This document shows positions 1 through 14,837 of a stretch of 21,283 bases of DNA, in pieces. Source of the stretch: a virus; UHGV virus genome UHGV-1980310. One strand, 5' to 3'. The notes beneath the pieces were generated by a model. It was not told the DNA's origin. It made no database searches and saw nothing but the letters and a program-made list of their open reading frames with translations. Within the stretch, counting starts at the first letter, position 1; each line of letters begins with the position of its first letter. The position numbers and the translations under genes were made by a program.

Positions 1-2091
1 ATGTATGTCATTGCAAAAGAACTGATTGGCGCGCCCGGAATGCCTGCTACAACAAAAGGTATTCGCCAGGCATTACAACGTTACGTACAAGGGAAAAGCT
101 GTTGTTCCCGTCGTCGCTCAGGCTCTAAAGCAACTGAATACAGCATCGACTGTTTACCTGAAGTGACGCAGCAGGCATTACGTGAACGCTACGCCCTGCA
201 ACTGATGACGCAAAAAGCCGATGAATCACCGGCTCCGGTGGTGACAAAGGCCAGACGCTCACCTGCCGTGGTTGATGCGGTGGAGGCATATCGCGGATCA
301 CCCCAACTGATGGTCGAACGCCTCAATGCCCTGACTGAAAACCAACGTAAAGTGGCAGAGGCACGAATAGCGATCGTCAGCGAGGTGCTGAAAATCGCGC
401 AACAACCCGGCTTTAGTTGCGCTAAGGCTATCCGGTTCCTCGTTAACAGCCTGGCACGATCACAACTGGACGAGCGCATTGTGGCAATGGTTGAGACGGC
501 GAACGCCAAAAAGGGAAACAGCCGCGCGTTGAGTGAAATCACGCTGAAACGCTGGATTGCGGCCTTTAACAAGGCACAGAACGCCGCTGAACGCCTGCTT
601 TTACTGGCACCGGGTAAACGCCAGGAAATAAAAGCCGAAGATATTAACTGGCTGCCCGAATTTCTGGCGCAGTATCGCCAGTCAAACGGCCGACCAATGA
701 CCGAGGCTTACGAGGATTTTGTTGCTGAATGGCAGCACCGGCACGCTGATGAGCCTTATATGCTCGATATCATGCCCTCTTATGACACCATTCGCCGCGC
801 AATGAAGAAACTGCCGGAAGTGGTGAAACAAAAAGGCCGGGTAACTGGCAGTGAATACCGTCAGCTTGAGGGATTCACGCGCCGCGACTGGTCCAGAATG
901 CCGGTGAATTATGTCTGGATTGGTGACGGTCACGGCATGAAGCTGAAATGCGCGCACCCGGTTCACGGGCGGCCATTCGCACCGGAAGTGACCTTTGTTA
1001 TCGACGGTGGCACGCGCTTTGTGGTGGGCTGGAGCCTTGACCTGGCTGAAAATGTTTTCGCCGTAGCCGGTGCCATACAGCACGGTATTCGCCATCATGG
1101 CAAACCGTTTCTGTATTACTCGGATAATGGCTCCGGGGAAACCGCCGACGTCCTGGATAAGGAGATTGTGGGGATACTGCCACGACTGGGGATTAATCAC
1201 CCGACAGGGATTGCCGGTAATCCGCAGGGACGGGGCATTATCGAACGGCTTAACCGCACATTACCGATGCGCATAGCCCGTAAATACCGCACCTATTTCG
1301 GGAAAGGAGCAGATCGCGAGACGTTACGTAAAACCAACCGCGATTTACGCTCGGCATTCAGTGCCCTGCAACAGGGCAAACGGCTGAACGCCCGGCAGCA
1401 GTCAGCGATGCGTGATTTACCGTCCTGGTCTGAACTGATTGATGCCATTCGTGACGGTGTTGAGTGGTACAACAACCGGCCGCACGATGAATTACCCATG
1501 AAGCCGAACGGTAAACATTACAGCCCGGCGGAGTTCAGAAAAAAACGCCTGGCGGAAGAGGACACGGAAATTGAATGGCTGTCCGATGTTGAACTGCGGG
1601 ATATGTTCCGGCCGATGGTGGAGCGCCCTGTAAGACGCTGTGAAATACGCTGGCTGAATAATATTTACTACGCGCCCGAGCTGCGTGACGAGCATGGCCG
1701 TAAGGTACTTATCAGCTATGACATTCATGATGCCGAACGAATTACCGTGCGCCGCCCGGATGGCAGCGTGATTTGCGAGGCGGTATGGGACGGCAATAAA
1801 CGCGAAGCCTTCCCTGTCAGCGCGGAATACTACAAACAGCAGCAGCGCCTTAAAGGCATGCGTAAACGCGCAGAGGAAAAAATCCGTGATGCCGAGGATG
1901 AGGTTGTCAACGTGCTGGAGCACAAGCCGCAGGAGCCCTGGCTGGAAAACATATACCGCCCTGTGGGTAATACGGTGACCGTTCAGCAACCGGTCGCTGA
2001 CGATGAACCTGATGAAGAATACGAGCGTAATTTCCAGCGGGGATTGCAACTGCTCGAAGCGAAATTAAAAGAAAGTGATCCGCTGGCCTGA
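1..2091 (+). CDS. A: DDE transposase, MuA-like (696 aa)
   Basis: N-terminus (KELIGAPGMPATTKGI) resembles the MuA end-binding domain start; length matches MuA (~663 aa); followed directly by a MuB-like ATPase. Homology judged from memory of MuA. Confidence 0.85.
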   Translation: MYVIAKELIGAPGMPATTKGIRQALQRYVQGKSCCSRRRSGSKATEYSIDCLPEVTQQALRERYALQLMTQKADESPAPVVTKARRSPAVVDAVEAYRGSPQLMVERLNALTENQRKVAEARIAIVSEVLKIAQQPGFSCAKAIRFLVNSLARSQLDERIVAMVETANAKKGNSRALSEITLKRWIAAFNKAQNAAERLLLLAPGKRQEIKAEDINWLPEFLAQYRQSNGRPMTEAYEDFVAEWQHRHADEPYMLDIMPSYDTIRRAMKKLPEVVKQKGRVTGSEYRQLEGFTRRDWSRMPVNYVWIGDGHGMKLKCAHPVHGRPFAPEVTFVIDGGTRFVVGWSLDLAENVFAVAGAIQHGIRHHGKPFLYYSDNGSGETADVLDKEIVGILPRLGINHPTGIAGNPQGRGIIERLNRTLPMRIARKYRTYFGKGADRETLRKTNRDLRSAFSALQQGKRLNARQQSAMRDLPSWSELIDAIRDGVEWYNNRPHDELPMKPNGKHYSPAEFRKKRLAEEDTEIEWLSDVELRDMFRPMVERPVRRCEIRWLNNIYYAPELRDEHGRKVLISYDIHDAERITVRRPDGSVICEAVWDGNKREAFPVSAEYYKQQQRLKGMRKRAEEKIRDAEDEVVNVLEHKPQEPWLENIYRPVGNTVTVQQPVADDEPDEEYERNFQRGLQLLEAKLKESDPLA

Positions 2092-2173
2092 AATAAAAAA
2101 ATAACCCGAGGGGTGACTCAGGTTATTTGAGGTTTCAGTCTCGGAGAATGCTGTCTCAAGCGAGGTGAATAAT

Positions 2174-3106
2174 ATGACCGATATTAACGATGTAATCAAG
2201 ACCATTGATGAACTTATTGATGGCGGCGTACTGACGCAGTATGCCATCGCCAGAGAGGCGGGAATTTCCGACGGCACATTATCGGCTTTCCGTAAGGGAA
2301 AATATAAAGGCGATAACGCTGCTGTGGCTGCTTCCCTGCGCTCCTGGTATGAGAACTGGAATAAACAAAGCGCACTGCCGGAACCGCCGCAGTTTGTGGA
2401 AACTCAGACAGTCCAGGAGCTGCGCGCACTGTTTCAGGCGGTTCGCCTGATGGGCTGTATTAACGTTATTGTGGGCGTACCGGGTGTGGGTAAAACGGCC
2501 ACTGCCCGTAATTACTGCCAGGAGCAACCAAACACCTGGATGATCACCCTGTCACCCGCGCACTCCAGCGTCACGGAGTGTCTGCTGGAGCTGGCCGATG
2601 CGCTGGGGATTGATTACACCCGCGCGAACAAAGGGGCATTATCCCGCGCCATCCGCCGTCGCCTGATGGGAACGCGTGGACTGGTGATTGTGGATGAGGC
2701 GGATCATCTTGGTATTGACGGTCTGGAGCAACTCCGGGCAATTCAGGACGCCACGGGGATCGGGATGGTGCTTATTGGTAACCCGCGCGGATTGTTTAAA
2801 GGTGGACGCCGCGCCTTTGATGATTTATCGCGCCTGTTCAGCCGTCTTGCCCGTACAAAACAACTTCGCAAGGCCAAAAAGGCGGATGTGTTGGCCATTG
2901 CCATGGCGTGGGGGATCAGTGGTGAGGCCGAGCTGGCCGTCATGCAGGCTATCGCTGAAAAGCCGGGAGCGTTACGCGTTCTGACACATACGCTTAACCA
3001 GGCGTGGCTCACCGCCAGCGGTGAAGGCGCGGCGCTGACAGAAAAACATATTAATGCGGCCTTTAAAGAGGTTTATACCAACCCTGAATTACTCTCACAG
3101 GTGTGA
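2174..3106 (+). CDS. B: Transposition ATPase / target DNA activator, MuB-like
   Basis: Walker A motif GVPGVGKTATARNY; motifs PEPPQFVETQTV, LVIVDEADHLG and AEKPGALRVL parallel MuB. ATG at 2174 preceded by GAGG; the track start at 2165 is GTG. Confidence 0.85.
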   Translation: MTDINDVIKTIDELIDGGVLTQYAIAREAGISDGTLSAFRKGKYKGDNAAVAASLRSWYENWNKQSALPEPPQFVETQTVQELRALFQAVRLMGCINVIVGVPGVGKTATARNYCQEQPNTWMITLSPAHSSVTECLLELADALGIDYTRANKGALSRAIRRRLMGTRGLVIVDEADHLGIDGLEQLRAIQDATGIGMVLIGNPRGLFKGGRRAFDDLSRLFSRLARTKQLRKAKKADVLAIAMAWGISGEAELAVMQAIAEKPGALRVLTHTLNQAWLTASGEGAALTEKHINAAFKEVYTNPELLSQV

Positions 3107-3108
3107 TT

Positions 3109-3330
3109 ATGGCGGTATTTAATATTCCTGATATTTACGGACGCTTTTACCTGGTTAATTTCGATAACGTGAAGGTGATTTCACTGGCCGAAAATAAAGA
3201 ATGTGGCGATTTACTTTTTGAATTTAATGACCGCACACGAATGGTGATATCTGCCGGACTTGATCGCGAAGGTGCGACAGAAGTTTACAGCGGAATATGC
3301 CGTTCTGTTGGTGCGAAACAAGTCAGCTAA
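3109..3330 (+). CDS. Hypothetical small early-region protein
   Basis: ORF immediately after B, position equivalent to the Mu semi-essential early region. No recognisable motif. Confidence 0.4.
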   Translation: MAVFNIPDIYGRFYLVNFDNVKVISLAENKECGDLLFEFNDRTRMVISAGLDREGATEVYSGICRSVGAKQVS

Positions 3331-3342
3331 ATGAGGTGTTAT

Positions 3343-3597
3343 ATGAATATGCAATCCTGCGGTAACAAAATGAATTTATTCGACTCCCTGAACAGCGCGC
3401 GCCGTCTGACCGAACTTGCCGGTGCGGTACTGGAACGCAGTAAGCGCTATCCGCAACGTTTTGCACTGAAAACCACGCCGCCGGTAGGCAACGTGCAGGG
3501 AACCGGTGAAATTGAAATCACCATACAGACCAACGGCCTGCGCCGCCGTGTGAAGGCCACCCGCATCAGCGGCTGCACGGTTTACTGGGAGGTGTGA
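3343..3597 (+). CDS. Hypothetical small early-region protein
   Basis: ORF with GAGG 6 nt upstream of ATG at 3343 (track start 3331 lacks an RBS). Confidence 0.4.
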   Translation: MNMQSCGNKMNLFDSLNSARRLTELAGAVLERSKRYPQRFALKTTPPVGNVQGTGEIEITIQTNGLRRRVKATRISGCTVYWEV

Positions 3598-3598
3598 G

Positions 3599-3880
3599 GT
3601 GAAAAAAAATCTCATTGCATGGGCGTGGTCGAGTGGTCTTATTGAGTTTGGTTACGTCCTGCCGGAAGGTGCATTGCCGATAGTTGCCGGAAAGCCTGCC
3701 ACGGTACGGCATGTGATTGAGGTTATGGCGCGTCATGGACGTGATGAACAGGAGCAGTTACTGGTTCCGGGGATACCGGAAGCGGTGACGGAGGAAGAAG
3801 CCTTTAATGCCATGATTCGGTTCTGCCGTGAGGTTAGACGCCGGGTCAGTTATCCAAACAGAACGAGGACCAGAGGATGA
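3599..3880 (+). CDS. Hypothetical small early-region protein (GTG start)
   Basis: Tightly packed ORF, GTG start adjacent to the preceding stop. No recognisable motif. Confidence 0.4.
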   Translation: MKKNLIAWAWSSGLIEFGYVLPEGALPIVAGKPATVRHVIEVMARHGRDEQEQLLVPGIPEAVTEEEAFNAMIRFCREVRRRVSYPNRTRTRG

Positions 3881-4149
3881 GTAAAGTCGTACGCATTATT
3901 TTCGAATACAAGGAAGATGTTATCTGCAAAAACTCTGATGGCAGCACGCACAGAGGGGTAAGTCTGGATATACGTTCAACCGGAATAAAGAAGAAAGATA
4001 ATGGACCCGCCATGATTTTTGGGGTGGTTATGCTGGCAGAAAGCAGAAACTTCGCAGAGTTTGTGGCAATGAAAGCCAGTGCATTCATGAAAGACAGAGG
4101 CATGGCTTCCGGGGTTATTAACGGTAATGAATTTAATCAACAGGGGTAA
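3877..4149 (+). CDS. Hypothetical protein; N-terminus paralogous to the next ORF
   Basis: ATGA start/stop overlap with the upstream ORF. N-terminus MSKVVRIIFEY matches MSKVRVIFEF of the downstream ORF. Confidence 0.4.
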   Translation: MSKVVRIIFEYKEDVICKNSDGSTHRGVSLDIRSTGIKKKDNGPAMIFGVVMLAESRNFAEFVAMKASAFMKDRGMASGVINGNEFNQQG

Positions 4150-4153
4150 TTCC

Positions 4154-4447
4154 ATGAGCAAAGTACGCGTTATTTTTGAATTTAATCATGTTTCGCATGA
4201 CGAAAAGTTGGCAGGCAATGACTGTGTTGAAGTGCATGAAAAGATTGGAGTGGATGTGAAAACAGAACGTGATACGGATAACAGGCCGACGTCACTCTGT
4301 GACGTTTATGCAAGTATTCTCCAGTATCACAGTCCTGCAATTATTCAGTTTCTCTCAGCGGAATTTCAGGCATCTGCACAGTCTTTTGGAGCGGATGCCA
4401 TCATTAAACGCCACCGCGTGCATAAAGCATCAGGCACACTGCAATAA
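4154..4447 (+). CDS. Hypothetical protein; N-terminus paralogous to the previous ORF
   Basis: ATG at 4154 preceded by AGGGG. The first ~30 nt resemble the start of the 3877 ORF. Confidence 0.4.
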   Translation: MSKVRVIFEFNHVSHDEKLAGNDCVEVHEKIGVDVKTERDTDNRPTSLCDVYASILQYHSPAIIQFLSAEFQASAQSFGADAIIKRHRVHKASGTLQ

Positions 4448-4458: not shown

Positions 4459-4989
4459 ATGGCTAAACGCGTTACAAAATTAAAGGCCGCAGCCGAGGCG
4501 GCACCGCAGACCCGGGAAGAAGTCAGCCGTGATATCCGCACCCTGGGAGATATTCAGCGAGAGGCGCTGCGCCTGGAAACGGCGATGAATGACGAAGTGG
4601 CAGAAATCACCGCCCGTTATACGCCGCAGATTGAAAATCTTAAAAAGCAAATCAAAGTGCTTTTTAAAGGGATTCAGGACTGGTGCAAAACCAACCGTGA
4701 TGAGCTGACGAACGGCGGCAAAACCAAAACAGCCAATCTGACCACCGGAACGGTGTCATGGCGGCTGGGAACGCCATCATGCAGCGTCAGCCGTGATGTG
4801 GAAGGTGTGATTGAAATGCTGCGCCGTATGGGGCTTGAGCGTTTCATCCGCACGAAAGAGGAAGTGAACAAGGAAGCCGTCCTGGCGGAGCCGGATGCTG
4901 TGAAAGGCATTGCCGGTATCAAGGTGAATAAAGGCGCTGAAAGTTTTTATGTCGAGCCTTTTGAACAGGACGCCGGACTGAATAAATAA
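4459..4989 (+). CDS. gam: Gam-like host-nuclease inhibitor (DNA-end binding), 176 aa
   Basis: Size, position after the early small genes, coiled N-terminal region and overall similarity to Mu Gam (~174 aa). AAGGA RBS upstream of ATG 4459. Confidence 0.75.
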   Translation: MAKRVTKLKAAAEAAPQTREEVSRDIRTLGDIQREALRLETAMNDEVAEITARYTPQIENLKKQIKVLFKGIQDWCKTNRDELTNGGKTKTANLTTGTVSWRLGTPSCSVSRDVEGVIEMLRRMGLERFIRTKEEVNKEAVLAEPDAVKGIAGIKVNKGAESFYVEPFEQDAGLNK

Positions 4990-5134
4990 CACCGCATTAA
5001 TCAATTAAATATCACTTCATTTTAATTATGGCGCTCGCGTCAGGGGACTGCTTGCGCCTGAAAACAGAAAATAAGGGTTAAGAAATATGAAATACGTTTA
5101 TATCGTCATTAATAATGTGGTGGGGAAATAAATC

Positions 5135-5668
5135 ATGATTGATGCAAAAGTGCTTGAAGGGGTTAAAAACTGGCTGTGTATTTATGGCCGCCTGACCTGC
5201 GGTGTACTGGCTGAAAAAATGAATATGCCGCCATCCTCCATGGTTTATTTTCTGCGTGATGCGGTTGATGCAGGCGTGCTGACGGAATGTAACGGTTTTT
5301 ATGATATTCCGCGCCCCCGCCCGGTGCAGCCGGTTCGTCGCAAATGCAGCCAGGAATCTGCGGCTGATGATGTTCAGTGGTGCGGCTTCAGAAAATCCCT
5401 GCCATGGATTGAGGGGCATGATATTCCGTCGATGGCGTGGGAATTTGCTCAGGGCGTTCTGACCTGTGAAACCGTTTATGTGGTGGCTGAAGTTGATGAG
5501 CAGGCCATGAAAGAAGGCGTGCCCCAGTTTGTGATGGCGTATATCGACATACGCCTGGGCGTCATTATCTGCGGTTTAAGCGGCTGGAATATCACTGAAC
5601 ATGTTCTGCGCTACCTGATTGTTGACCGGACAGCAGCGCCTGCCGGGATATCTGCGGAGGTGGCGTAA
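5135..5668 (+). CDS. Hypothetical Cys-rich protein with a possible helix-turn-helix segment
   Basis: RBS GGGGAAA upstream of ATG 5135, preceded by an AT-rich intergenic region (4990-5134). Segment LTCGVLAEKMNMPPSSMVYFLRDAVDAGVL looks HTH-like. Function unknown. Confidence 0.45.
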   Translation: MIDAKVLEGVKNWLCIYGRLTCGVLAEKMNMPPSSMVYFLRDAVDAGVLTECNGFYDIPRPRPVQPVRRKCSQESAADDVQWCGFRKSLPWIEGHDIPSMAWEFAQGVLTCETVYVVAEVDEQAMKEGVPQFVMAYIDIRLGVIICGLSGWNITEHVLRYLIVDRTAAPAGISAEVA

Positions 5669-6039
5669 TGTTCTTTAAAACATCAAACCCTTCCGCGCTG
5701 GCTGCGTGGCAAAAATACCAGCAGGACTGCCAGAAAGTTAAGGATGAGGCAAAACGCCTTGAGGCCGTGCTGAATGTTGCGTGCCGGTCGGTATTTGTAT
5801 CCGGTATCAGTGGATTTTGCTTTAAGGGACTGCGTTTTACGGAGGACAAATATCCTTTTCATCGCGACTTATGGCGAAAACCGACTGCGTCGAATGGCGC
5901 TGATTTACAACGTGAACACCCGTGTGGCTTACAATGCCGGGCGTTACACGCAGATGATGAACAACACGGACACGCATCCGTTCTGGCAGTATGTGGCGGT
6001 CATGGACAGCCGTACCCGCCCGTCGCATTCCGCCCTTAA
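5668..6039 (+). CDS. ORF of uncertain status (translationally coupled start, then overlaps the F-like gene in another frame)
   Basis: GGAGG RBS and TAATG overlap with the upstream gene support a real start at 5668, but the frame stays open across the F-like ORF start. May be the 5' part of a frameshifted F gene. Confidence 0.25.
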   Translation: MFFKTSNPSALAAWQKYQQDCQKVKDEAKRLEAVLNVACRSVFVSGISGFCFKGLRFTEDKYPFHRDLWRKPTASNGADLQREHPCGLQCRALHADDEQHGHASVLAVCGGHGQPYPPVAFRP

Positions 6040-6889
6040 CGGTCTGGTATTCCGCTATGACGATCCGTTCTGGAAAACACACTACCCGCCCAATGGCTGG
6101 AACTGCCGCTGCCGTGTGCGGCCATTGTCTCAGGCCCGTCTGGATGCAATGGGGTTATCCGTTTCATCCGGTGAGGATCATCTCTCCACCCGCAATGTTG
6201 AGGCTGGCGTGGATAAACAGACCGGAGAAGTCAGAGAAATGCCGGTGACCACATATTCAGATGGCACCAGAACCATGACACCGGATGTGGGCTGGTCATA
6301 TAACCCCGGCTCGGCAGCGTTCGGCACAGACCAGGCGCTGATCCGCAAACTGATCGAGGTGAAAAGCCCGGCGTTACGGGAAATGGTGGTTCAGGAGATG
6401 AACAACAGCCCGGAGCGGCAGCTGGCGTTCCGCATCTGGGCAAAAAACATCATGCAGACCCGGCGAGGTGGTAACGATATCCGCACGCTGGGCTTTATGA
6501 CTGAAAGCATTGCGCAGGCAGTGGAAAGCCGGACGGGAACGCCACCGGCCCGCCTGCTGGCGATGAGCGGTAAAAATGTGCTCCATGCGGACAGTGTGAA
6601 ACATCAGAATGACGGCATCGCTCTGACGCCGGAGGACTTCGGGCGCTTACCGGCAATGCTGGCAAAGCCAAAAGCGGTACTGTGGGACAAACGGCACAAC
6701 AATCTGATGTATATCGTGGAAAATCAGGATGGCAGTGTGCAGATTGCCGTTAATGCACCGTACAGTCTGAAACGTCAGCCCGACAAACTGGATGTGATTG
6801 TGAATGCTTACCGGGTTATCAATATGGATAAGCTGAAATCGGATATCCGGGGCGGAATGCTTGAGGTGCTGGAAGGACAAATTGATTAA
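5774..6889 (+). CDS. Head morphogenesis protein, Mu F / SPP1 gp7 family; 5' end uncertain
   Basis: Motifs RLRRMALIYNVNTRVAYNAGRYTQM and WQYVAVMDSRTRPSHSALNG are typical of the Mu F domain. ATG 5774 has GAGG ~10 nt upstream. Confidence 0.65.
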   Translation: MLRAGRYLYPVSVDFALRDCVLRRTNILFIATYGENRLRRMALIYNVNTRVAYNAGRYTQMMNNTDTHPFWQYVAVMDSRTRPSHSALNGLVFRYDDPFWKTHYPPNGWNCRCRVRPLSQARLDAMGLSVSSGEDHLSTRNVEAGVDKQTGEVREMPVTTYSDGTRTMTPDVGWSYNPGSAAFGTDQALIRKLIEVKSPALREMVVQEMNNSPERQLAFRIWAKNIMQTRRGGNDIRTLGFMTESIAQAVESRTGTPPARLLAMSGKNVLHADSVKHQNDGIALTPEDFGRLPAMLAKPKAVLWDKRHNNLMYIVENQDGSVQIAVNAPYSLKRQPDKLDVIVNAYRVINMDKLKSDIRGGMLEVLEGQID

Positions 6890-7010: not shown

Positions 7011-7484
7011 ATGTCATCCATTGATGCCGCTGTCGTTGTTGACGTTACGCGTCTCCAGCGAGTGTTTGCCCGGCTTCAGTTTGTGGGCGGCGGAAAAGAC
7101 CTGGCCCGCAGTGTGGCGGCGAGTCTTCTGTCATCGTCAGAAATGGCGTTTGAGCAGGAAAAAGAGCCGGATGGTGAACGCTGGCATGACTGGTCAGATC
7201 CTTACCGTGAGTGGCGTACCCGTAAGGGATACACGCCCGGCAAAATCCTGACGCTGAACGGCGATCTGGCCCGCCGCCTGACCACGGATTATGGCGATAC
7301 CTGGGCGCTGATTGGATCAAATGAACCTTATGCAGCCATTCATCAGTGGGGTGGCCTGCCTGGTATGCCACCGGGACCGGCGGCCATTGGCGCACGTCCG
7401 TATATGGGCTTTGATCAGGTGGCAGAACAGGAGATCATGGACGAAATCAGAAAACGCTTTAAAAAGGCCACAGAAACGCCGTAA
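7011..7484 (+). CDS. Virion morphogenesis protein, Mu G-like
   Basis: 157-aa ORF directly after the F-like gene with GGAGG RBS; position and size match Mu G. Confidence 0.6.
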   Translation: MSSIDAAVVVDVTRLQRVFARLQFVGGGKDLARSVAASLLSSSEMAFEQEKEPDGERWHDWSDPYREWRTRKGYTPGKILTLNGDLARRLTTDYGDTWALIGSNEPYAAIHQWGGLPGMPPGPAAIGARPYMGFDQVAEQEIMDEIRKRFKKATETP

Positions 7485-7661
7485 TGGTTTAAGGTATGCA
7501 AACGTATTACCTTACCCCCTTCAGGCGCGTGTCGTGATTTTCTAACCTGTATTTAACGGGCTTTAAAATCTGCGTGAAGCGCCTTTCTCATTCCCCCCCT
7601 GTCAGCACTTTCTGAAGTCCCGCAAAACCAGCCCCAAAAATACCCGGCTTATGCTGCCGGT

Positions 7662-8795
7662 ATGAAGACAGAAAATCACCCAAAAGACGCAAATCGCCCC
7701 TCCGGTTTAGCCGTGCTTTCAGCTTCGCTGACTGCATCCGGCGACGGATGGTGTCAGTTACTGCCAGCCGGTCGGGTAAAGGCCCGTGACGGTCGCCCGG
7801 AAAAACCGACTGAAGGCTGGCTGATTAACGAATCCGCCTGTAACCGGATGAAAGCCGGGCTTTCCGCCCTGCATCAGCCGTTACTGATTGATTATGACCA
7901 TCACTCCGTGAATGCGCAGAAAAACGGATTCAAGGCTATTGCTGCAGGATGGGTTAAGCCGGAAAACATCGAATGGCGTGAGGGTCAGGGGATTTTCATT
8001 AAACCTGAATGGACACCACAGGCACAAAAACATATTGATGACCGTGAATATGCCTATCTGTCTGCATATATGCATTATTTCGCTGACACCGGGGAACCCT
8101 ACCTGTTGCGCATGGCTTCCCTGACGAATGATCCGGGTATTACGGGTATGAACCCTGTCGCGGCACTCAGTGCTGATGATCTCTATGTCGTTTCCCCTTC
8201 TCAGGAGCAATCCCCCATGAATGAGCAATTACGCCAGTTGCTGACGGCGCTCGGTCTGACCGTGGCTGACGGTGACGAATTTACACCGGAACTGGGCACG
8301 GCGGCGCTGTCTGCCCTTACCGGGATCAAAACCCGTGCGGATGCGCACGACACCCTGAAAACGCAGGTTGCCAGCCTGTCGGCAGAGCTGGAAACCGCAA
8401 AAGGCACACCAACTGGCGGCACTATTGATCTGACGAAAAACGTGCCCGTTGAGACGTATAACGCCCTGCGTACCGAATATGTCGCGTTGTCGGCACAACA
8501 CGGCAGCACCACGCTGGAGCAGTTGCTGGATAAGGCCGAGTCCGAAGGACGCATTTTCAAAAGCGAACGCGGATACATGGAAGGACTCGGACAACAGATT
8601 GGTGTTGCGGCACTTTCTGCACAGCTTGACGCCCGCCAGCCGGTTGCGGCTCTGACCACTCTTCAGACCGACACCGTAACCGTGCCGGATAAAAAGACCG
8701 CCACCGCTGCGCTGTCGGCTGAAGATATCGCCGCCGCCCATCTGCTGGGTAAAACCGAAGCCGAGTTCCTGAAAATGAAAGAGGAAATGCAATAA
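7662..8795 (+). CDS. Head protease/scaffold protein, Mu I-like
   Basis: 377-aa ORF immediately upstream of the major head gene with a stop/start overlap; Ala-rich acidic C-terminal half typical of scaffolds. Assigned by synteny. Confidence 0.6.
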   Translation: MKTENHPKDANRPSGLAVLSASLTASGDGWCQLLPAGRVKARDGRPEKPTEGWLINESACNRMKAGLSALHQPLLIDYDHHSVNAQKNGFKAIAAGWVKPENIEWREGQGIFIKPEWTPQAQKHIDDREYAYLSAYMHYFADTGEPYLLRMASLTNDPGITGMNPVAALSADDLYVVSPSQEQSPMNEQLRQLLTALGLTVADGDEFTPELGTAALSALTGIKTRADAHDTLKTQVASLSAELETAKGTPTGGTIDLTKNVPVETYNALRTEYVALSAQHGSTTLEQLLDKAESEGRIFKSERGYMEGLGQQIGVAALSAQLDARQPVAALTTLQTDTVTVPDKKTATAALSAEDIAAAHLLGKTEAEFLKMKEEMQ

Positions 8796-9742
8796 TGCCT
8801 ACCCCGATCACACCGGCGATGATCACCGCCCTGATGACGGGCTACCGTTCTGATTTTCAGGCCGGGATGTCCATGGCTCCGTCTCAGTACCAGAAAATTG
8901 CGATGACCGTACCGTCCACGTCGAAATCCAACACCTACGGCTGGCTGGGGCAGTTCCCGCAGTTCCGTGAGTGGATCGGCTCCCGCGTCATCGAGAAGAT
9001 GAAAGCCTATGGCTACGCCATCGTGAACAAAACCTTTGAAGGCACCGTTGCCATTAGCCGCGATGACTTTGAAGACGACAATCTTGGCATCTACTCCCCG
9101 TTGTTCCAGGAGATGGGGCGCGCTGCGGCGGCACAACCGGATGAACTGGTCTTTGCTGCACTGCGTGATGGTCTGAATGCGGCCTGCTATGACGGCCAGA
9201 ACTTCTTTGATACCGAACACCCTGTTTACCCCAAAGTGGATGGCTCCGGTGATGCACAGATGGTCAGCAATATGTTTGTGGCAAAAACCGGCTCTGTCGG
9301 TGCACAGGCGGATTACAGCGGCCCGGCCTGGTATCTGCTTGACTGCTCCCGCGCGGTAAAACCGCTGATTTATCAGGATCGCCGCAAGGCCGAACTGGTT
9401 GCCCAGACAAAAGTCGATGAAGGCCGTGCGTTTACTGATAACGAGTTTGTGTTCGGTGCTTCCGCCCGTCGCAATGTGGGCTACGGCTTCTGGCAGATGG
9501 CCTACATGATGCAGTCACCGCTGACGCTGGATGCGCTGTGGCACGGCTGGTCAGCCATGCGTGACTTTAAGGCTGACGGTGGCCGCAAACTCGGCATCAA
9601 ACCCACCCATATTGTTGTCCCCACCTCGCTGGAAAAACAGGCGGTGCAGCTGCTGGAGCGCGAGCTGTTCGCGGACGGTAACACCACCGTCTCTAACGAG
9701 ATGAAGGGCAAGCTGGAGCTGGTTGTCGCGGATTATCTGTAA
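8795..9742 (+). CDS. Major head (capsid) subunit, Mu T-like
   Basis: 315 aa, follows the I-like gene with TAATG coupling; size and position match Mu gpT. Confidence 0.65.
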   Translation: MPTPITPAMITALMTGYRSDFQAGMSMAPSQYQKIAMTVPSTSKSNTYGWLGQFPQFREWIGSRVIEKMKAYGYAIVNKTFEGTVAISRDDFEDDNLGIYSPLFQEMGRAAAAQPDELVFAALRDGLNAACYDGQNFFDTEHPVYPKVDGSGDAQMVSNMFVAKTGSVGAQADYSGPAWYLLDCSRAVKPLIYQDRRKAELVAQTKVDEGRAFTDNEFVFGASARRNVGYGFWQMAYMMQSPLTLDALWHGWSAMRDFKADGGRKLGIKPTHIVVPTSLEKQAVQLLERELFADGNTTVSNEMKGKLELVVADYL

Positions 9743-9785: not shown

Positions 9786-10145
9786 ATGAATGAACATCAC
9801 ACTGTGGCAGCAACAGATGATTTAGGCCTTCAGGTCAGTGGTGACAGTCCTGTCACGGTACTGGCAGAAGTGCGTTGCAGTCGTGCGCAGTTTCGTCGTG
9901 CGGGGTTCCTGTTCATGCGGGGACGCCAGCAGGTTGACGTCACCCCGGAGCAGCTTGCCCGACTGGAAGCGGAGCCATGCCTCACTGTACGAATACTACA
10001 GACGCCTGGTGATGATGCGGGAGCCGTGGCGGGTGTGGTTCATGCAGAGACCGGTGCAGATTTAGCCGAAGCCGAAACCGTACAGGATGCTCCCCGGAAA
10101 AAGACCGGCAATAACGCCAGACAGGCGAAAAAGGCGCGCGCATGA
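9786..10145 (+). CDS. Hypothetical head/neck protein
   Basis: GGAGGG RBS; first gene of a tightly coupled block (ATGA overlaps) between the capsid gene and the putative sheath gene. Confidence 0.45.
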   Translation: MNEHHTVAATDDLGLQVSGDSPVTVLAEVRCSRAQFRRAGFLFMRGRQQVDVTPEQLARLEAEPCLTVRILQTPGDDAGAVAGVVHAETGADLAEAETVQDAPRKKTGNNARQAKKARA

Positions 10146-10561
10146 ATTACGCCACCGAAACCGATATGCGGGCACGTTACCGCGAGGATTTGCTCAGGCC
10201 ATTACTGGCCGTGCCCCGTTCGGATGAACCGGACACGCGCAAGCTGAACCGGGCACTGACGGACGCGTCTGCCCTTATCGACAGCTATCTGTCTTCCCGT
10301 TACACGCTGCCGCTGGCGGTGGTTCCGGCGGTCCTTGTTCAGCATTGCTGCACGATTGCCTTTTATTACCTGTGCGATCAGCGGGCATCCGATCAGGCGC
10401 GTGACCGTTACCGTGAGGCGCTGGCCTGGCTGAAAGATGTCATGAACGGTAACGTGCCGGTCGGCGTGGATACAGACGGTGCGGCCCCTGAATCCGGGGA
10501 TTTACCGCAGGTGCAGTCTGATGCGGCGGTGTTCGGGCGCAACCAGAAGGGCTTTATATGA
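10142..10561 (+). CDS. Mu gp36-like (DUF1320-type) head-tail joining protein
   Basis: ATGA overlap with the upstream gene; ~140 aa; N-terminus and position are consistent with Mu gp36 homologues. Assigned from memory of the family. Confidence 0.45.
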   Translation: MNYATETDMRARYREDLLRPLLAVPRSDEPDTRKLNRALTDASALIDSYLSSRYTLPLAVVPAVLVQHCCTIAFYYLCDQRASDQARDRYREALAWLKDVMNGNVPVGVDTDGAAPESGDLPQVQSDAAVFGRNQKGFI

Positions 10562-11121
10562 TTACGGAAACCGAACAGGCATATATCACCCGTATTCGTG
10601 AGTATTTCGGGAATGAACTGGTGTCTGTTGACACACATCCCGGCGACTGGAGCGACAGCGTGCTGCGCACCATGCTGATTAACGCCCCGGCTATCTATGT
10701 TGCCTGGCTGGGTGCCGGTGAAGGGCGTACCCGTGGGCGTCTGGTCAGTCACTGGGTGTTCTACGTCATCGGCGACATGCTCAATGGCCGTGAGGTCAGC
10801 CGTCCCGGGCTTTATCAGATTGTGGCCCGCCTGATTACCGTGCTGGACGGCTTCAGAGCAGAAAAAACCTCACCGCTTTACTTTGAAAAGGCGGTCAACG
10901 GTTACACCGAAACGCAGGCAGGCAGCGGTGCCGTGATGTACGCCCTGTATTTCTCATGCGAGGAAATGATCGACCCGCTGACGGATATCAGCTCGCTGGA
11001 TGATTTCCTGCGCCATTACGAAACCTTTACCGAACCGGAAGGCACGCCGGAATTTAAGGCACACATCCGTCTGCCTGGTGCAACTGCCGCCGGTGAAAAC
11101 GCCGGACTGTCAGAGGAATAA
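10558..11121 (+). CDS. Mu gp37-like protein
   Basis: ATGA overlap with the upstream gene; size and position match Mu gp37. Confidence 0.45.
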   Translation: MITETEQAYITRIREYFGNELVSVDTHPGDWSDSVLRTMLINAPAIYVAWLGAGEGRTRGRLVSHWVFYVIGDMLNGREVSRPGLYQIVARLITVLDGFRAEKTSPLYFEKAVNGYTETQAGSGAVMYALYFSCEEMIDPLTDISSLDDFLRHYETFTEPEGTPEFKAHIRLPGATAAGENAGLSEE

Positions 11122-11124
11122 CAG

Positions 11125-11403
11125 ATGACAACCATTTTTATTAAACCTGCGCCGGGATGCCTGATCCGCGATCCCGACACGATGACTCCGCTCTCTCAGG
11201 ACGGGGAAGAGAAACCCTTCACTCCGTTCTGGTGCCGCCGTCTTAATGATGGCGACGTCATTGTGGTGGATAAAACGGCGGAGCCTGCCCCGGCTGCCAC
11301 AACAGGTAATACCGGCGCGGCGGCAAAACCAGCGGGAGCGGCAGCAGAAAAAACTGCGGCGGTGGCTGAAAAAACCGCAGCATCAGATAAGGGGACGTCC
11401 TGA
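11125..11403 (+). CDS. Mu gp38-like small protein with Ala/Thr-rich low-complexity C-terminus
   Basis: 92-aa ORF in the gp38 position; repetitive AAEKTAA motifs at the C-terminus. Confidence 0.4.
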   Translation: MTTIFIKPAPGCLIRDPDTMTPLSQDGEEKPFTPFWCRRLNDGDVIVVDKTAEPAPAATTGNTGAAAKPAGAAAEKTAAVAEKTAASDKGTS

Positions 11404-13025
11404 TGATTAACTTTGATTATATCGGCGATAACAATCGCATTCCGCTGGTACAGATTGAAATCAATAATTCAATGGCCGTGACCGGCACTCCACCACAGCG
11501 TCAGGCGGTACTGTTGTTTGGTCAGGCTGCAATGAAAGACACCACCATTCAGGGGCGCGGTCAGCTTGATGTACCAGTACGTATTACCCGAGCTTCACAA
11601 GCAAGAGAACTCTGGGGGCGAGGTTCCATGATTGCACTGATGGTAGAGGAATTTATCGCCATTAACCCTGACACAGAGTTATATGCCATTGCACAGGGGG
11701 CTGGAACAGGTCAGTCCAGGGCATGCGTGATGAATATCATTGGAACAGCATTGGCAGACGGGGTGTTAAGTGTTTACATCGGCGGTCGCCGTTACCTCCT
11801 GCCCGTCAGTAAGGGGAAAAAAGGTAAAGAGCTTGTGGAAGAGCTGGCTAAGGTCATTAACGCTGACACTGATGCGCCATTCACTGCTATCGCAGCTGAA
11901 GTCAGTGGTGATAATGCTGAAGGACTTAAAGGCAGCATGGGGGTTAACGCCCGCTTTATCGGTGAATGCTCAGCTCATGATTTACGGGTGAACTATTATG
12001 ACGGTGAAACTACACCGGCCGGTCTTACGCTGGAGCTCGTCGCGCCAACACAGAAGGCAACAAACCCCGATATCACCCGTAGCGTCTCAGGGATGGGGAA
12101 TCGTCAGTACAACTACATCGTCATGCCCTATAAGGATGCGGCAAATCTCAAAATTCTGGCGGATGAACTGCTGAAACGCTGGGGACCGGTAAAAATGTCG
12201 GACGGTATGGTCTGGATGGCGCATACCGGCACCTTCGGTACGGCAACCAGTTTTGGTGAATCCCGTAATGACTTCCTGTTTACCTGCACTTCTATTCCTA
12301 AAGCACCAGAGCCGGATTATGTCTGGGCGGCCTCCATTTGTGCGGTCTGTGCGCCCTCCCTGTCAACGGATCCGGCCCGACCATTACAGACACTGGCGCT
12401 GCCTGCCCGTATGGCACCTGAAGCACCAGCTCGTCTGACGCGGGAAGAGCGAAACAGCCTGCTTTATACCGGCATGTCCACGGTGACCGTCGCGGCCGCT
12501 GACATGGTGCAGATTGAACGTCAGGTGACGATGTACCGTCAGAATGCATACGGCGAAAGCGATCCCAGCTATCTGGATGTGGAAACCATCTACACCCTGT
12601 CATATCTGCGTTATTCCCTGCGCACCTTTATCACGCAACGTTTTCCGCGCCATAAACTGGCTGATGACGGGACGCCTGTTCGTGCAGGTCAGAATATCGT
12701 GACGCCGGAGATCATGAAACTTCAGTTAATTTCGCTGGGTGAAGAATGGGTGGAGCTGGGACTGGTCGAAAATCTGGACACCTTTAAAAAGAATCTGCTC
12801 GTGGAGCGCAACACAAAAGACCGTAACCGTCTGGATGTGATGTGTACACCGGATCTGGTTAACCAGTTCCGCTTCATGGCCGCGCACCCGGATTACGGCA
12901 CGTTAAATGTGCTGATAAACAGCTTTGAAAGTCGTTATAACGCTGCTGAACAGGGCGTGGTTGAGTTCACCATTAATGTCACGCCGGTAAGTGATGATAT
13001 CTGGGGTTACCGGAATGTGATATGA
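11403..13025 (+). CDS. Putative contractile tail sheath protein (Mu L position), 540 aa
   Basis: Large ORF in the sheath position after gp36-38-like genes, with TGATG coupling. Assigned by synteny only. Confidence 0.5.
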   Translation: MINFDYIGDNNRIPLVQIEINNSMAVTGTPPQRQAVLLFGQAAMKDTTIQGRGQLDVPVRITRASQARELWGRGSMIALMVEEFIAINPDTELYAIAQGAGTGQSRACVMNIIGTALADGVLSVYIGGRRYLLPVSKGKKGKELVEELAKVINADTDAPFTAIAAEVSGDNAEGLKGSMGVNARFIGECSAHDLRVNYYDGETTPAGLTLELVAPTQKATNPDITRSVSGMGNRQYNYIVMPYKDAANLKILADELLKRWGPVKMSDGMVWMAHTGTFGTATSFGESRNDFLFTCTSIPKAPEPDYVWAASICAVCAPSLSTDPARPLQTLALPARMAPEAPARLTREERNSLLYTGMSTVTVAAADMVQIERQVTMYRQNAYGESDPSYLDVETIYTLSYLRYSLRTFITQRFPRHKLADDGTPVRAGQNIVTPEIMKLQLISLGEEWVELGLVENLDTFKKNLLVERNTKDRNRLDVMCTPDLVNQFRFMAAHPDYGTLNVLINSFESRYNAAEQGVVEFTINVTPVSDDIWGYRNVI

Positions 13026-13351
13026 CCGGCGCAACCATTCAGGAGCGTCAGCGTTATGCCGGGAATAAATACCGGATGAAACCCTCTCTTAACCGTGAAT
13101 TTTATATCCGGTTTGCGGCAGAGTTTGGTTATGAAATAGATATTCAGCCATCACCGGATTCACAGTGGGTCAGTATTGTCACGATTAACAGTGAAACCGG
13201 CTACCGGAATATGAATGTGCTGGATGATATTCTCACGCCGCTGCGTATTTATGAAGGCGGTGCGCTGGAATGTATTCTGAACCGTTATAAGCCTGCATGG
13301 CAGACGTTTATTTACGTGTATGCAAACAGCCATGAAGAGGAGACTATTTAA
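13022..13351 (+). CDS. Short DUF2313 / Mu gp48-like protein, apparently only the C-terminal half
   Basis: C-terminal motif [14 protein letters not shown] and central [13 protein letters not shown] resemble YmfQ / Mu gp48-family proteins, which are ~190 aa. Sits directly upstream of the tail fibre gene as gp48 does in Mu. Recollection-based. Confidence 0.4.
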
Positions 13352-14241
13352 TGTTTCATGTTGATAATAATTCCGGCGTGGCGAATATGCCTGCGCTGGC
13401 ACCAGCGCAGAGTAATACCACCACCTGGTTTACCGAAGGTGACGGACAAAAAGGTATCAGCTGGATTGGTCAGGACTGGCTGAATATTCTCCAGGCCGAA
13501 CTGCTGAATATTCTGGCTGAAGCCAGTATTCAGCCGGATAAGGCGCAGTTAAACCAGCTTACGCTGTCCATTAAAGCCATTATCGCTGCGAATGCCTTTT
13601 CCCGGAAAAATAACCTGAAAGAAATTGCTGATGCCGGTGCGGAGGCCCAGCGTCTGGCCCGTGGTTATCTTGGTCTGGGGACGCTTGCCACAAAAAACAG
13701 TCTTGGTCCCGCTGACGTTAATGCCCTGGCGAAGGATCAGAATCTCGCCGACCTAGAGAATAAGGGAACCGCCCGTAATAATCTGGATGTTTACAGCAAA
13801 AGCGAAGGTGATAACCGTTACCTGCGCAGGGAGCAGAACGGCGCAGACATTCCGGATAAAGGGGCTTTTATCGATAACGTCGGTTTACGGGAAACGGTAA
13901 ACAGGGCGGCGAATGCTCTGCCATCGGACGGCACCGCCGTTGCCGCGAATAGACTCGCCACCCCAAGAAATATTAATGGGGTTCCCTTTGACGGGACGCA
14001 GGACATAAACATCACTTCTGGTATAACACAGCAGGATGCGGATTCCCGATATATCCAGGATATCAGGCTGGGAGCAGAGAACAGGCAGGTAATGTACGGT
14101 GGGGCATATTACTCTGCGTACGGTAATGTTATGGCAGGCCTGCAGATTGACAGTAAAGTTGATGCTTCAAACGATTTTATAGCATTCAGACCCCTGCAAA
14201 AATTAGTCGGAGGTACATGGATTACGGTATCTCAGTTATAA
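13351..14241 (+). CDS. Tail fibre protein (Mu S / P2 H type); constant N-terminus fused to variable C-terminal cassette Sv in the current orientation
   Basis: C-terminus [29 protein letters not shown] and [12 protein letters not shown] are hallmark P2 H / Mu S motifs. The gene spans the left crossover site at 13868-13893. Confidence 0.8.
13868..13893. repeat. Left crossover site (gix/hix-like 26-bp imperfect palindrome) of the invertible segment
   Basis: TTATCGATAACGTCGGTTTACGGGAA; its inner half is identical to the inner half of the right site and resembles Gin/Hin-family recombination sites. Confidence 0.6.
13881..14005. repeat. Left arm of ~120-bp imperfect inverted repeat flanking the invertible segment
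   Basis: Reverse complement of ~15075-15197 matches this stretch with a few mismatches (for example GGCGGCGAATGC(T/C)CTGCCATCGGACGGCACCGCCGTTGCCGCGAA). Confidence 0.65.
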
Positions 14242-14292
14242 ATAGTCAGTAAATAATATATTTTAAAACAGATTTATTTCCAGGAGGATTTT

Positions 14293-14814
14293 ATGGAACT
14301 AAAAAATATAACCCGTTATTATCCTGAAAATATGCCATATGGTAATAATGTTCAGTATTTCCAGAGTGAAGATGGTAAGGATTTCTACGAATCCCTGCCA
14401 TTATTCACCAAAAAATATAAACTTTGCATAACACCTGACAGCGGCGTTATCTGCTCAATATCACAGGACGCCTCGGCGCTGTATCCTGCGGGGTTTTCTG
14501 TGGTTGAGGTCGATGAACTCCCTGAAGGCACGGATATTTCAGGAAACTGGAAGTTTGATAATGGCATAATCTCCCGTATTCCGGTTAACTACGCAAGAAA
14601 ACTGGAAGCAATGCGCCAGTCATATCTTAATCAGGCATATGAAAAAATTAATGACTGGAGAACGGAGCTACAACTGGGCACCATCAGCGATGAAGACAGA
14701 GCAGCACTTACCCAATGGATGGCATACATCAGTCAGGTGAAGAAAATGGAACTACCCGCCATTAAAACAGAAGCTGAATTTAACGCCATTAAATGGCCTG
14801 AGCAGCCACAGTAA
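14293..14814 (+). CDS. Tail fibre assembly chaperone (Mu U / P2 G type)
   Basis: AGGAGG RBS; 173 aa; C-terminal region (QWMAYISQVKKMELP...IKWPEQP) is typical of tail-fibre assembly proteins. Immediately downstream of the fibre gene. Confidence 0.8.
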   Translation: MELKNITRYYPENMPYGNNVQYFQSEDGKDFYESLPLFTKKYKLCITPDSGVICSISQDASALYPAGFSVVEVDELPEGTDISGNWKFDNGIISRIPVNYARKLEAMRQSYLNQAYEKINDWRTELQLGTISDEDRAALTQWMAYISQVKKMELPAIKTEAEFNAIKWPEQPQ

Positions 14815-14817
14815 TAA

Positions 14818-14837
14818 AGAAGGCCGGAAGGCCTTCT
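14818..14837. terminator. Bidirectional hairpin between convergent U and S'v
   Basis: AGAAGGCC-GGAA-GGCCTTCT: 8-bp GC-rich stem with a 4-nt loop, 4 nt after the U stop and 9 nt from the S'v stop. Confidence 0.5.

What the first reader, a model, noticed from the sequence alone, without database searches (positions are those of the whole stretch)
4990..5850. Missing middle/late regulatory, lysis, terminase and portal genes between gam and the F-like gene
In Mu the region between gam and F holds mor, C, lys and lysis genes, terminase and portal (~8 kb or more). Here gam is separated from the F-like gene by ~0.8 kb containing one unrelated 177-aa Cys-rich ORF. The element therefore cannot package DNA or activate late promoters by itself. 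A one-transposase, head-plus-fibre remnant may be a domesticated or satellite-like element rather than random decay.
Basis: partly seen in the sequence, partly recalled or inferred. Interest (0 to 1): 0.55.

Follow-up and report, generated by a model that had tools for sequence, protein, structure and literature searches.

The report
Deletion scar in decaying Mu-like prophage
The short gap between gam and the F-like gene is the scar of a 9.3-9.8 kb deletion in a Mu-like prophage of an E. coli clone; this is ordinary prophage decay, not a domesticated or satellite element, although the closest complete genome also carries an intact sister prophage.

Summary
The window is a 21.5-kb defective Mu-like (Sp18-type) prophage inserted in ypdB of E. 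coli. It is colinear with strain TOE17, differing by 7 SNPs.

The gap is real, but it is not filled by an "unrelated" ORF:
- The 177-aa ORF (5135-5668) is the Mu gp11 homologue (68% identity, full length).
- It is followed by the first 77 codons of gp12 (5668-5898).
- gp12 is joined out of frame, at a 4-bp microhomology (TGGC, 5895-5898), to codon 115 of F.

Compared with complete relatives, 9.3-9.8 kb is missing. That segment carries gemA, the Mor/C-type activator, lysis genes, both terminase subunits, the portal and the 5' end of F. Two more deletions (12885/6 and 12998/9) removed the tail tube through the baseplate, and gin is frameshifted.

- The junction occurs in 1 of 5,426 complete E. 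coli genomes and on 22 assembly contigs; the two with host flank lie in ypdB.
- Sister strains with the same insertion have lost more, and another contig carries a further deletion.
- This is stepwise, microhomology-mediated decay in one clone.

TOE17 also holds a complete, probably heteroimmune sister prophage in cheB with identical ends. Helper-dependent "mini-Mu" mobilisation is therefore possible but unsupported.

The parts
1..2091 (+). Mu-type transposase A, full length (696 aa)
   Evidence: PF09299 and PF02316; phrog_310 at 3e-211. It is 98% identical over all 696 aa to the A protein of the complete cheB prophage.
2165..3106 (+). MuB transposition ATPase
   Evidence: PF09077 and AAA_22. 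Same protein accession as in the complete cheB prophage of TOE17.
3103..4447 (+). Small early-region ORFs, including a Kil-family gene at about 3343-3597
   Evidence: ORF list. PF26843 Kil_protein on the equivalent gene of L005. phrog_2230 for 4127-4447.
4459..4989 (+). gam (host nuclease inhibitor)
   Evidence: PF07352 at 5.5e-42.
5135..5668 (+). Mu gp11 homologue (the '177-aa Cys-rich ORF'), intact
   Evidence: 68% identity to Mu gp11 over the full length. PF25754 Gp11_C at 5.7e-41. Same protein accession in the complete cheB prophage.
5668..5898 (+). 5' fragment (77 codons) of the Mu gp12 homologue. The ORF then runs out of frame through F sequence to a stop at 6039.
   Evidence: 47% identity to Mu gp12 residues 1-78. 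phrog_2314 positions 2-80 of 173. PGAP pseudogene 'missing C-terminus'.
5895..5898 (.). Deletion junction J1: 4-bp microhomology TGGC inside a 9/11 imperfect match (5888-5898). 9,338 bp is missing relative to the 23CRST047 prophage and 9,750 bp relative to the TOE17 cheB prophage.
   Evidence: Three-way alignments.
5899..6889 (+). 3' part of F/gp30 (codons 115-443). It lies in ORF 5774-6889, whose first 42 codons are not F.
   Evidence: 57% identity to Mu gp30 from residue 112. PF04233 matched only from profile position 34. PGAP pseudogene 'missing N-terminus'.
7011..9742 (+). G (virion morphogenesis), I (protease/scaffold) and T (major head protein), all intact
   Evidence: PF05069, PF10123 and PF10124.
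9786..11403 (+). Head-completion genes (FluMu_N, gp36, gp37, DUF2635)
   Evidence: Pfam hits.
11403..12886 (+). Tail sheath gene lacking its last 6 codons. Deletion junction J2 is at 12885-12886 (CA microhomology), with 3.3 kb missing: tube, chaperone, tape measure.
   Evidence: PF04984 and PF17482. Junction mapping.
12887..12999 (+). About 113-bp relic of the DNA-circularisation (N) gene, ending at junction J3 (12998-12999, TA). About 4.4 kb is missing: rest of N, baseplate P, V, gp46, gp47 and the 5' end of gp48.
13000..15214 (+). 3' end of gp48, tail fibre, fibre-assembly gene and the invertible segment (13863-15214). The segment is flipped relative to 23CRST047 and DLI.5a.
   Evidence: PF10076 (below the curated cutoff) and PF02413. 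Opposite-strand match at 99.3%.
15276..15847 (+). gin-type invertase, frameshifted (two ORFs)
   Evidence: PGAP 'frameshifted'. Resolvase/HTH_7 split over two genes.
15933..20213 (+). Right-end cargo and com/mom: SASA-esterase/DUF6645 gene, DUF1378, DUF826, com, mom
   Evidence: Pfam hits. PGAP annotation.
20336..20345 (.). Right terminus of the prophage (...GCGCTAT ends at 20340) followed by the 5-bp target duplication AACTG (20341-20345). The interrupted ypdB and then ypdA follow.
   Evidence: The same terminal sequences occur at independent insertions in cheB and elyC.

Best explanation
The window is a defective Sp18-type Mu-like prophage in ypdB of an E. coli clone. Region 4990-5900 holds normal Mu early-region content (an intergenic spacer, the gp11 homologue and the start of gp12) followed by a deletion scar.

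A single intramolecular, probably RecA-independent, illegitimate recombination event at a 4-bp microhomology (TGGC) joined codon 77 of gp12 to codon 115 of F. It removed about 9.3-9.8 kb:
- the rest of gp12 and several small early genes;
- gemA/gp16 and the only Mor/C-family activator;
- endolysin, spanins, TraR-like, gp25 and gp26 homologues;
- small and large terminase, the portal and the 5' third of F.

Two further microhomology deletions and a gin frameshift disabled the tail module.

What is shown: the gene identities, the three junctions, the rarity of the arrangement, the single insertion site and the stepwise further decay in relatives.

What is inferred: the deletion mechanism. Also inferred is that the element cannot lyse the cell, package DNA or make particles on its own. 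It does retain a repressor, ner, full-length A and B ORFs and both natural termini.
For: Gene identities.

Synteny with Mu (gam-gp11-gp12 ... F-G-I-T), with 9.7 kb between gam and F in Mu.

Junction:
- J1 mapped to the base against two complete relatives, with TGGC microhomology and an out-of-frame fusion.
- J2 and J3 mapped with 2-bp microhomologies.
- PGAP pseudogene calls on both sides of J1.

Distribution:
- The deleted segment is present in 236 of 5,426 genomes, and at 80% coverage or more in 228.
- The junction arrangement is present in 1 of 5,426.
- The exact fusion protein is on 22 contigs. The two with host flank show the same ptsP-ypdC-ypdB flank, and the five shown differ from the window by 1-9 SNPs.

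Further decay in the same insertion:
- AST46 and DLI.5a share J2, J3 and the gin frameshift. They carry a larger deletion from A (nt 845) to the sheath gene (nt 11941) at TAAC.
- L007 has an extra deletion of 9689-12884 at CACC.

The 5-bp target duplication and natural termini show that a whole prophage originally inserted by transposition.
Against: - Retained genes (A, B, gam, gp11, G, I, T, fibre, mom) are intact ORFs. This could be read as conservation. However, carriers differ by only a few SNPs, so there has been no time for decay, and intactness is uninformative.
- A complete sister prophage sits in the same genome. Functional interplay therefore cannot be excluded.
- The deletion mechanism is inferred from the junction sequence only.
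Confidence: 0.9

Rival explanations
1. Natural mini-Mu or satellite-like element. The deleted prophage persists because it is mobilised by a co-resident complete Mu-like prophage. The helper's A/B, Mor/C, terminase, portal and tail act in trans on the defective element's ends and pac site. Headful packaging would then carry the 21.5-kb element plus about 17 kb of adjacent host DNA.
For: - TOE17, the closest complete genome, has a complete 39-kb sister prophage in cheB with Mor, lysis genes, gp27, a large terminase (72% identical to Mu gp28), a Portal_Mu protein and a full tail module.
- The termini are identical for at least about 48 bp at each end.
- The A proteins are 98% identical.
- The repressors are only 44% identical, so double lysogeny is plausible.
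- From established knowledge, laboratory mini-Mu derivatives behave this way.
Against: - There is only one copy of the junction in TOE17 and only one insertion site in all contigs with visible flank.
- The junction is absent from IMG/VR and JGI metagenome contigs.
- No dedicated hijacking genes were found.
- Sister strain DLI.5a has no helper-type terminase/portal DNA, and its remnant is simply more decayed.
- The element's own repressor would be expected to block its enhancer (inference).
Confidence: 0.06
2. Domesticated prophage remnant kept by host selection, for example for superinfection immunity through its c repressor, for Mom DNA modification, or for the SASA-esterase/DUF6645 cargo gene.
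For: The right-end block (fibre, DUF6645, DUF1378, DUF826, com, mom) and the c/ner region survive in all three decayed versions: TOE17, AST46 and DLI.5a.
Against: - The insertion was seen in only 3 of 5,426 complete genomes, all nearly identical in sequence.
- The insertion destroys ypdB.
- The parts that are lost differ between sister strains.
- There is no depth of divergence on which selection could be measured.
- Nothing links the gam-F junction itself to a function.
Confidence: 0.03
3. Assembly artefact, or a naturally compact functional phage with this gene order.
For: None beyond the compactness itself.
Against: - The same junction occurs in an independent complete genome, in ENA metagenome scaffolds and in Logan contigs.
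- Both genes flanking the junction are truncated and out of frame.
- No phage record has this order. The best phage hits cover only the F-G half.
Confidence: 0.01

Closest known systems
Sp18-type Mu-like prophages of E. coli (prototype Sp18 of O157:H7 Sakai; complete copies in TOE17 cheB and 23CRST047 elyC)
   Same: Same gene order and 94-99.6% nucleotide identity in all shared segments to these two copies. Same termini, short target duplication and random insertion sites. The com/mom genes and the invertible fibre segment are also present. Sp18 is described as predicted intact in PMC2669165.
   Different: The window element lacks 9.3-9.8 kb (gp12 3' end to F 5' end), 3.3 kb (tube to tape measure) and 4.4 kb (N to gp48), and its gin is frameshifted.
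Bacteriophage Mu (NC_000929)
   Same: The order A-B-kil...gam-gp11-gp12 and F-G-I-T is the same. gp11 is 68%, gp12 47% and F 57% identical at the protein level.
   Different: Mu has mor and C as two separate activators and carries the full middle/late, lysis and packaging block between gp12 and F. DNA identity is only about 73-76%, in F.
Laboratory mini-Mu / Mud deletion derivatives (established knowledge)
   Same: Retains both ends, c, ner, A and B. It lacks morphogenesis functions and is shorter than a headful. A helper of the same family is present in TOE17.
   Different: It arose spontaneously. It retains half of the head module and the fibre genes. There is no evidence that it transposes or is packaged, and its repressor differs from the helper's.
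Cryptic/defective prophages produced by deletional decay (reviewed in PMC6379469; the O157 defective prophage pool in PMC2669165)
   Same: Stepwise internal deletions, pseudogenes, vertical inheritance at one site, and different degrees of loss in sister strains.
   Different: Nothing of note. This is an unusually well-resolved example because complete sisters allow base-level mapping of every junction.

Membership tests
Mu-like transposable prophage | DDE transposase with Mu C-terminal domain, plus MuB ATPase | tested here: met
   PF09299, PF02316 and PF09077; phrog_310 and phrog_296.
Mu-like transposable prophage | Mu early-region synteny: gam followed by gp11 and gp12 | tested here: met
   gp12 is truncated.
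Mu-like transposable prophage | Insertion by transposition: short target duplication, different sites in different genomes, same termini | tested here: met
   AACTG is duplicated in ypdB. Sister copies lie in cheB and elyC with identical terminal sequences. The right terminus ends ...TAT, not the canonical CA; this is unexplained but shared by all three copies.
Mu-like transposable prophage | Mu-type head module (F, G, I, T) and com/mom at the right end | tested here: met
   F is truncated.
Complete (self-sufficient) Mu-like phage | Mor/C-family middle/late activator | tested here: not met
   No such gene in the window. It is present in the deleted segment of relatives (PF08765).
Complete (self-sufficient) Mu-like phage | Terminase small and large subunits and Portal_Mu portal | tested here: not met
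   Absent from every ORF of 4777-6889. They lie within the 9.3-9.8 kb deleted segment.
Complete (self-sufficient) Mu-like phage | Endolysin/spanins, and tail tube, tape measure and baseplate | tested here: not met
   Removed by J1, J2 and J3.
Phage satellite (P4-like, PICI, PLE type) | Conserved compact gene organisation recurring in independent lineages and sites | tested here: not met
   1 of 5,426 genomes. One clone and one site. 0 hits in IMG/VR and JGI contigs.
Phage satellite (P4-like, PICI, PLE type) | Dedicated helper-exploitation genes (capsid redirection, packaging hijack, helper-sensing derepression) | tested here: not met
   Every ORF that gave a match is an ordinary Mu-family gene or right-end cargo shared with complete sisters.
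Phage satellite (P4-like, PICI, PLE type) | Co-resident helper phage | tested here: met
   Complete sister prophage in cheB of TOE17. None in DLI.5a.
Mini-Mu (helper-dependent deletion derivative) | Both termini, plus A and B, intact; shorter than one headful | tested here: met
   21,545 bp against about 39 kb. Termini are identical to those of the complete sister. A is 696 aa and full length. B has the same protein accession as in the sister.
Mini-Mu (helper-dependent deletion derivative) | Demonstrated transposition or packaging with a helper | not testable with these tools
   Needs induction and virion or long-read sequencing.
Domesticated prophage | Long-term vertical conservation under purifying selection | tested here: not met
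   The five carrier contigs compared differ by 1-9 SNPs. Sister strains have lost different parts. There is too little divergence for dN/dS.

The most novel reading that the evidence does not exclude
The ypdB element is a spontaneously arisen natural mini-Mu. When the heteroimmune complete sister prophage in cheB enters lytic growth, the element is transposed and headful-packaged in trans. It would then spread itself and about 17 kb of adjacent chromosome (ypdA through about evgS, or further). Alternatively, the clone retains it for the extra immunity specificity that its distinct c repressor provides.
Probability: 0.08. Interest if true: 0.4.

Novelty: already known. Interest (0 to 1): 0.12.

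Why it matters
The result matters mainly as a negative. The striking gap is a deletion scar, and the "odd" ORF is a standard Mu early gene, so no new regulatory or satellite biology needs to be invoked.

Its modest value is as a clean, base-resolved example of stepwise microhomology-mediated prophage decay:
- there are three junctions in this element;
- sister strains carry further, independent deletions;
- an intact, heteroimmune sister prophage sits in the same chromosome.

That combination is a natural mini-Mu/helper configuration that could be tested for mobilisation and transduction of neighbouring host genes.

Tried and rejected
Negative searches:
- Terminase/portal homology in small or antisense ORFs of 4777-5862: none in Pfam or PHROGs.
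- NCBIfam has no model hitting gp11, gp12 or the extra 180-aa ORF of 23CRST047.
- The junction 34-mer gave 0 hits in IMG/VR and 0 in JGI metagenome contigs.
- ARAGORN and Rfam (gathering threshold) found no RNA gene in the window.

Finding the second prophage in TOE17:
- Two ranked searches did not list TOE17.
- A composite query was used instead: a chromosomal tag unique to the ypdB::Mu junction plus 1.6 kb of terminase/portal DNA. A tag-only control showed one extra terminase/portal place in TOE17, one in AST46 and none in DLI.5a.
- A third ranked search then located the prophage.

Ideas rejected:
- The short gam-gp11 spacer is not a fourth deletion. 23CRST047 has a 180-aa ORF there, but the complete cheB prophage has the same short spacer, so this is a natural polymorphism.
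- The defective copy is not a recent intragenomic duplicate of the cheB prophage. The two differ by 152 mismatches in 6.5 kb and have different repressors.
- The element is not a tailocin or gene-transfer agent. It lacks tube, baseplate, terminase and portal.

Full report
**What the window is.** On the + strand the window encodes a Mu-type set of genes:
- transposase A (1-2091) and MuB (2165-3106);
- small early ORFs, then gam (4459-4989);
- a 177-aa ORF (5135-5668);
- an F-like ORF (5774-6889), then G, I and T;
- head-completion genes and a tail-sheath gene;
- fibre genes, a split gin, a SASA/DUF6645 cargo gene, and com/mom.

Megablast places the window in E. coli. It is colinear, without indels and with 7 substitutions, with strain TOE17 (NZ_CP069093.1), where the prophage interrupts ypdB. 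The prophage spans 21,545 bp. It is flanked by a 5-bp duplication (AACTG) of ypdB sequence, and removing one copy restores the YpdB reading frame. Its right terminus is at window position 20340.

**Checking the observation.** The short distance is real. gam ends at 4989 and homology to F begins at 5899. In Mu the same two genes are 9.7 kb apart, and that interval holds gp11-gp15, gemA, mor, C, lys, the spanin, gp24-26, gp27, gp28 and gp29.

The description of the content is wrong in three ways.
- The 177-aa ORF (7 cysteines) is the homologue of Mu gp11, the gene that follows gam in Mu. It is 68% identical over the full length, matches PF25754 Gp11_C at 5.7e-41 and matches phrog_1949 at 4e-105.
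- It is followed, with the same ATGA overlap as in Mu, by the first 77 codons of the gp12 homologue (5668-5898). This fragment is 47% identical to Mu gp12 residues 1-78 and matches phrog_2314 positions 2-80 of 173.
- The "F-like gene" is a fragment. Homology to Mu gp30 starts at gp30 residue 112, and the Phage_Mu_F domain is matched only from profile position 34.

No ORF on either strand of 4777-5862 matches any terminase or portal family.

**The junction.** I aligned the window with two complete relatives: the prophage of strain 23CRST047 in elyC (L002/L010) and the prophage of TOE17 in cheB (L012). The window follows gp12 up to ...CGTCGAATGGC (5888-5898) and follows F from GCTGATTTAC (5899). 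The two parental sequences share TGGC (5895-5898) within a 9/11 imperfect match.

The missing segment is 9,338 bp in 23CRST047 and 9,750 bp in the cheB prophage. It contains:
- the 3' end of gp12, a SANT/Myb-like gene and several small ORFs;
- gp16/GemA and the single Mor-family activator (PF08765);
- lysozyme, the spanins, a TraR-like gene, DUF2730 and a gp26-like gene;
- gp27 and the large terminase (72% identical to Mu gp28);
- the Portal_Mu portal;
- the first 114 codons of F.

The fusion is out of frame. The gp12' frame runs 46 codons into F sequence and stops at 6039. The F frame is opened by a fortuitous ATG at 5774. PGAP annotates both sides of the junction as pseudogenes.

**Further damage in the same element.** Two more junctions lie downstream.
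- At 12885-12886 (CA), 3.3 kb is lost: the last 6 sheath codons, the tube, the chaperone, the tape measure and the 5' end of the DNA-circularisation gene.
- At 12998-12999 (TA), about 4.4 kb is lost: the rest of that gene, baseplate P, V, gp46 and gp47, and the 5' end of gp48.
- A roughly 113-bp relic remains between these two junctions.
- gin is frameshifted.

Adding the three deleted segments to 21.5 kb gives about 39 kb, the size of the complete sister.

**Distribution.**
- The deleted segment is present in 236 of 5,426 complete E. coli genomes, and at 80% coverage or more in 228 of them.
- The junction-bearing arrangement is present in one genome, TOE17.
- The exact 371-aa fusion protein is on 22 contigs from ENA, Logan and NCBI assemblies.
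- The two contigs with host flank show the same ptsP-ypdC-ypdB context, and the five shown differ from the window by 1-9 substitutions.
- The junction 34-mer is absent from IMG/VR and JGI metagenome contigs.

This is one clone with one insertion.

**Sister strains show continuing decay.** A tag spanning the ypdB::Mu left junction is found in only three complete genomes: TOE17, AST46 and DLI.5a.
- AST46 and DLI.5a share J2, J3 and the gin frameshift.
- Both have a larger deletion from nt 845 of A to nt 11941 in the sheath gene, at a TAAC microhomology. This leaves a remnant of about 10.5 kb.
- A Logan contig (L007) has J1 plus a further deletion of 9689-12884 at CACC.

Five independent deletions were therefore seen in one insertion: three at 4-bp and two at 2-bp microhomologies. 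They are nested in different ways in different strains. This is what deletional decay predicts, and it is not what a selected architecture predicts.

After a composite-query test with a control, a ranked search located a second Mu-like prophage in TOE17 at 2.114-2.153 Mb, inserted in cheB.
- It has a full gene set, and the only pseudogene flag is on the usual partial fibre gene of the invertible segment.
- It is 95-99.6% identical to the defective element in shared parts.
- The terminal sequences are identical.
- The A proteins are 98% identical, and B, gam and gp11 carry the same protein accessions.
- The repressors are only 44% identical. I infer from this that the two prophages are heteroimmune.
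- The two copies differ by 152 mismatches in 6.5 kb, so the defective copy is not a recent duplicate of the complete one.
- DLI.5a has no such helper DNA. AST46 has one place with it.

**Interpretation.** The best-supported reading (confidence 0.9) is ordinary deletional decay of a Mu-like prophage inherited vertically in one clone. The element cannot activate late transcription, lyse the cell, package DNA or build tails on its own.

It still has c, ner, full-length A and B ORFs and both natural ends, so it has the anatomy of a mini-Mu. From established knowledge of laboratory mini-Mu elements, the cheB prophage could in principle transpose it and headful-package it together with adjacent host DNA. 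Nothing here shows that this happens. There is a single copy, a single site and no virion-derived sequence. Nothing indicates selection for the architecture either. Domestication is likewise unsupported.

**Comparison with known systems.** The element is a member of the Sp18-type Mu-like prophage family. Sp18 of O157 Sakai is described as predicted intact in PMC2669165, and Sakai's Sp18 portal/packaging region matches the deleted segment at 96.8%. The element fails every test for a self-sufficient phage. It also fails the structural tests for a satellite; only helper co-residency is met. The finding is of an already-known kind.

Noticed in passing
L012 (TOE17 NZ_CP069093.1 2109000-2156000), prophage at about 4938-44018: A second, apparently complete 39-kb Mu-like prophage is inserted in cheB of the same genome. 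Its termini are identical to those of the defective element. It is 95-99.6% identical in shared parts, but its c repressor is only 44% identical.
   Followed up: yes
window 6889-6974, minus strand (between F and G): A tRNA-like cloverleaf with a 10-bp acceptor stem and a GGUUCGA T-loop. PGAP annotates it as 'tRNA-OTHER' in relatives (for example L012:22845-22924, L002:19004-19083) but not in the TOE17 ypdB copy. ARAGORN and Rfam do not call it, and the folding z-score is only -1.5. One of the 7 SNPs against TOE17 (6906) lies inside it.
   Followed up: partly
window 13863-15214 and 15276-15847: The invertible fibre segment has opposite orientation in the window/TOE17 and in DLI.5a, although the element's own gin is frameshifted in both. 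An intact gin exists in the cheB prophage of TOE17, but DLI.5a has no such prophage. The inversion was therefore made by another invertase or happened before the frameshift.
   Followed up: partly
L003 (AST46) 41630-41636; L004 (DLI.5a) 41661-41667; L007 5546-5549: More decayed versions of the same ypdB insertion. AST46 and DLI.5a have a deletion from A nt 845 to sheath nt 11941 (TAAC). In L007, window 9689-12884 is deleted (CACC), ending within 1-4 bp of the older junction J2.
   Followed up: yes
window 20336-20340; L001 14397 and 35941; L012; L010: The family's right terminus reads ...GCCGCGCTAT rather than ending in the canonical Mu/DDE 'CA'. It is identical at three independent insertions (ypdB, cheB, elyC). 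The cheB copy shows a 5- or 6-bp duplication depending on where the end is drawn. The 23CRST047 left end begins TA instead of TG.
   Followed up: partly
window 5088-5132: A 14-codon mini-ORF lies in the gam-gp11 spacer where 23CRST047 has a 180-aa ORF of unknown family (L002:7364-7906). The complete cheB prophage has the same short spacer, so this is a polymorphism and not decay.
   Followed up: yes
window 15933-17987: A 684-aa cargo gene with a SASA (sialate O-acetylesterase-like) domain and a DUF6645 domain lies between gin and com/mom. It carries the same protein accession in all five prophage copies examined (TOE17 ypdB and cheB, AST46, DLI.5a, 23CRST047).
   Followed up: no
TOE17 genome: The query window:4400-7500 matched 4 places in TOE17. 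The defective copy and the two halves of the cheB prophage explain three. The fourth place was not located.
   Followed up: no
L009 (ENA metagenome scaffold VATA22-2), = window 4297-7514: This contig has the same J1 junction and an identical F' protein, but 9 substitutions in 3.2 kb. Other carriers have 1-4 substitutions in up to 17 kb. This may reflect gene conversion from a co-resident sister prophage or an older branch of the clone.
   Followed up: no
L010 (23CRST047 prophage in elyC): The 'complete' reference relative is itself decaying. It has two IS66-family insertions (ISEc22 and ISEc43, the latter splitting the DNA-circularisation gene) and a frameshifted transposase.
   Followed up: partly
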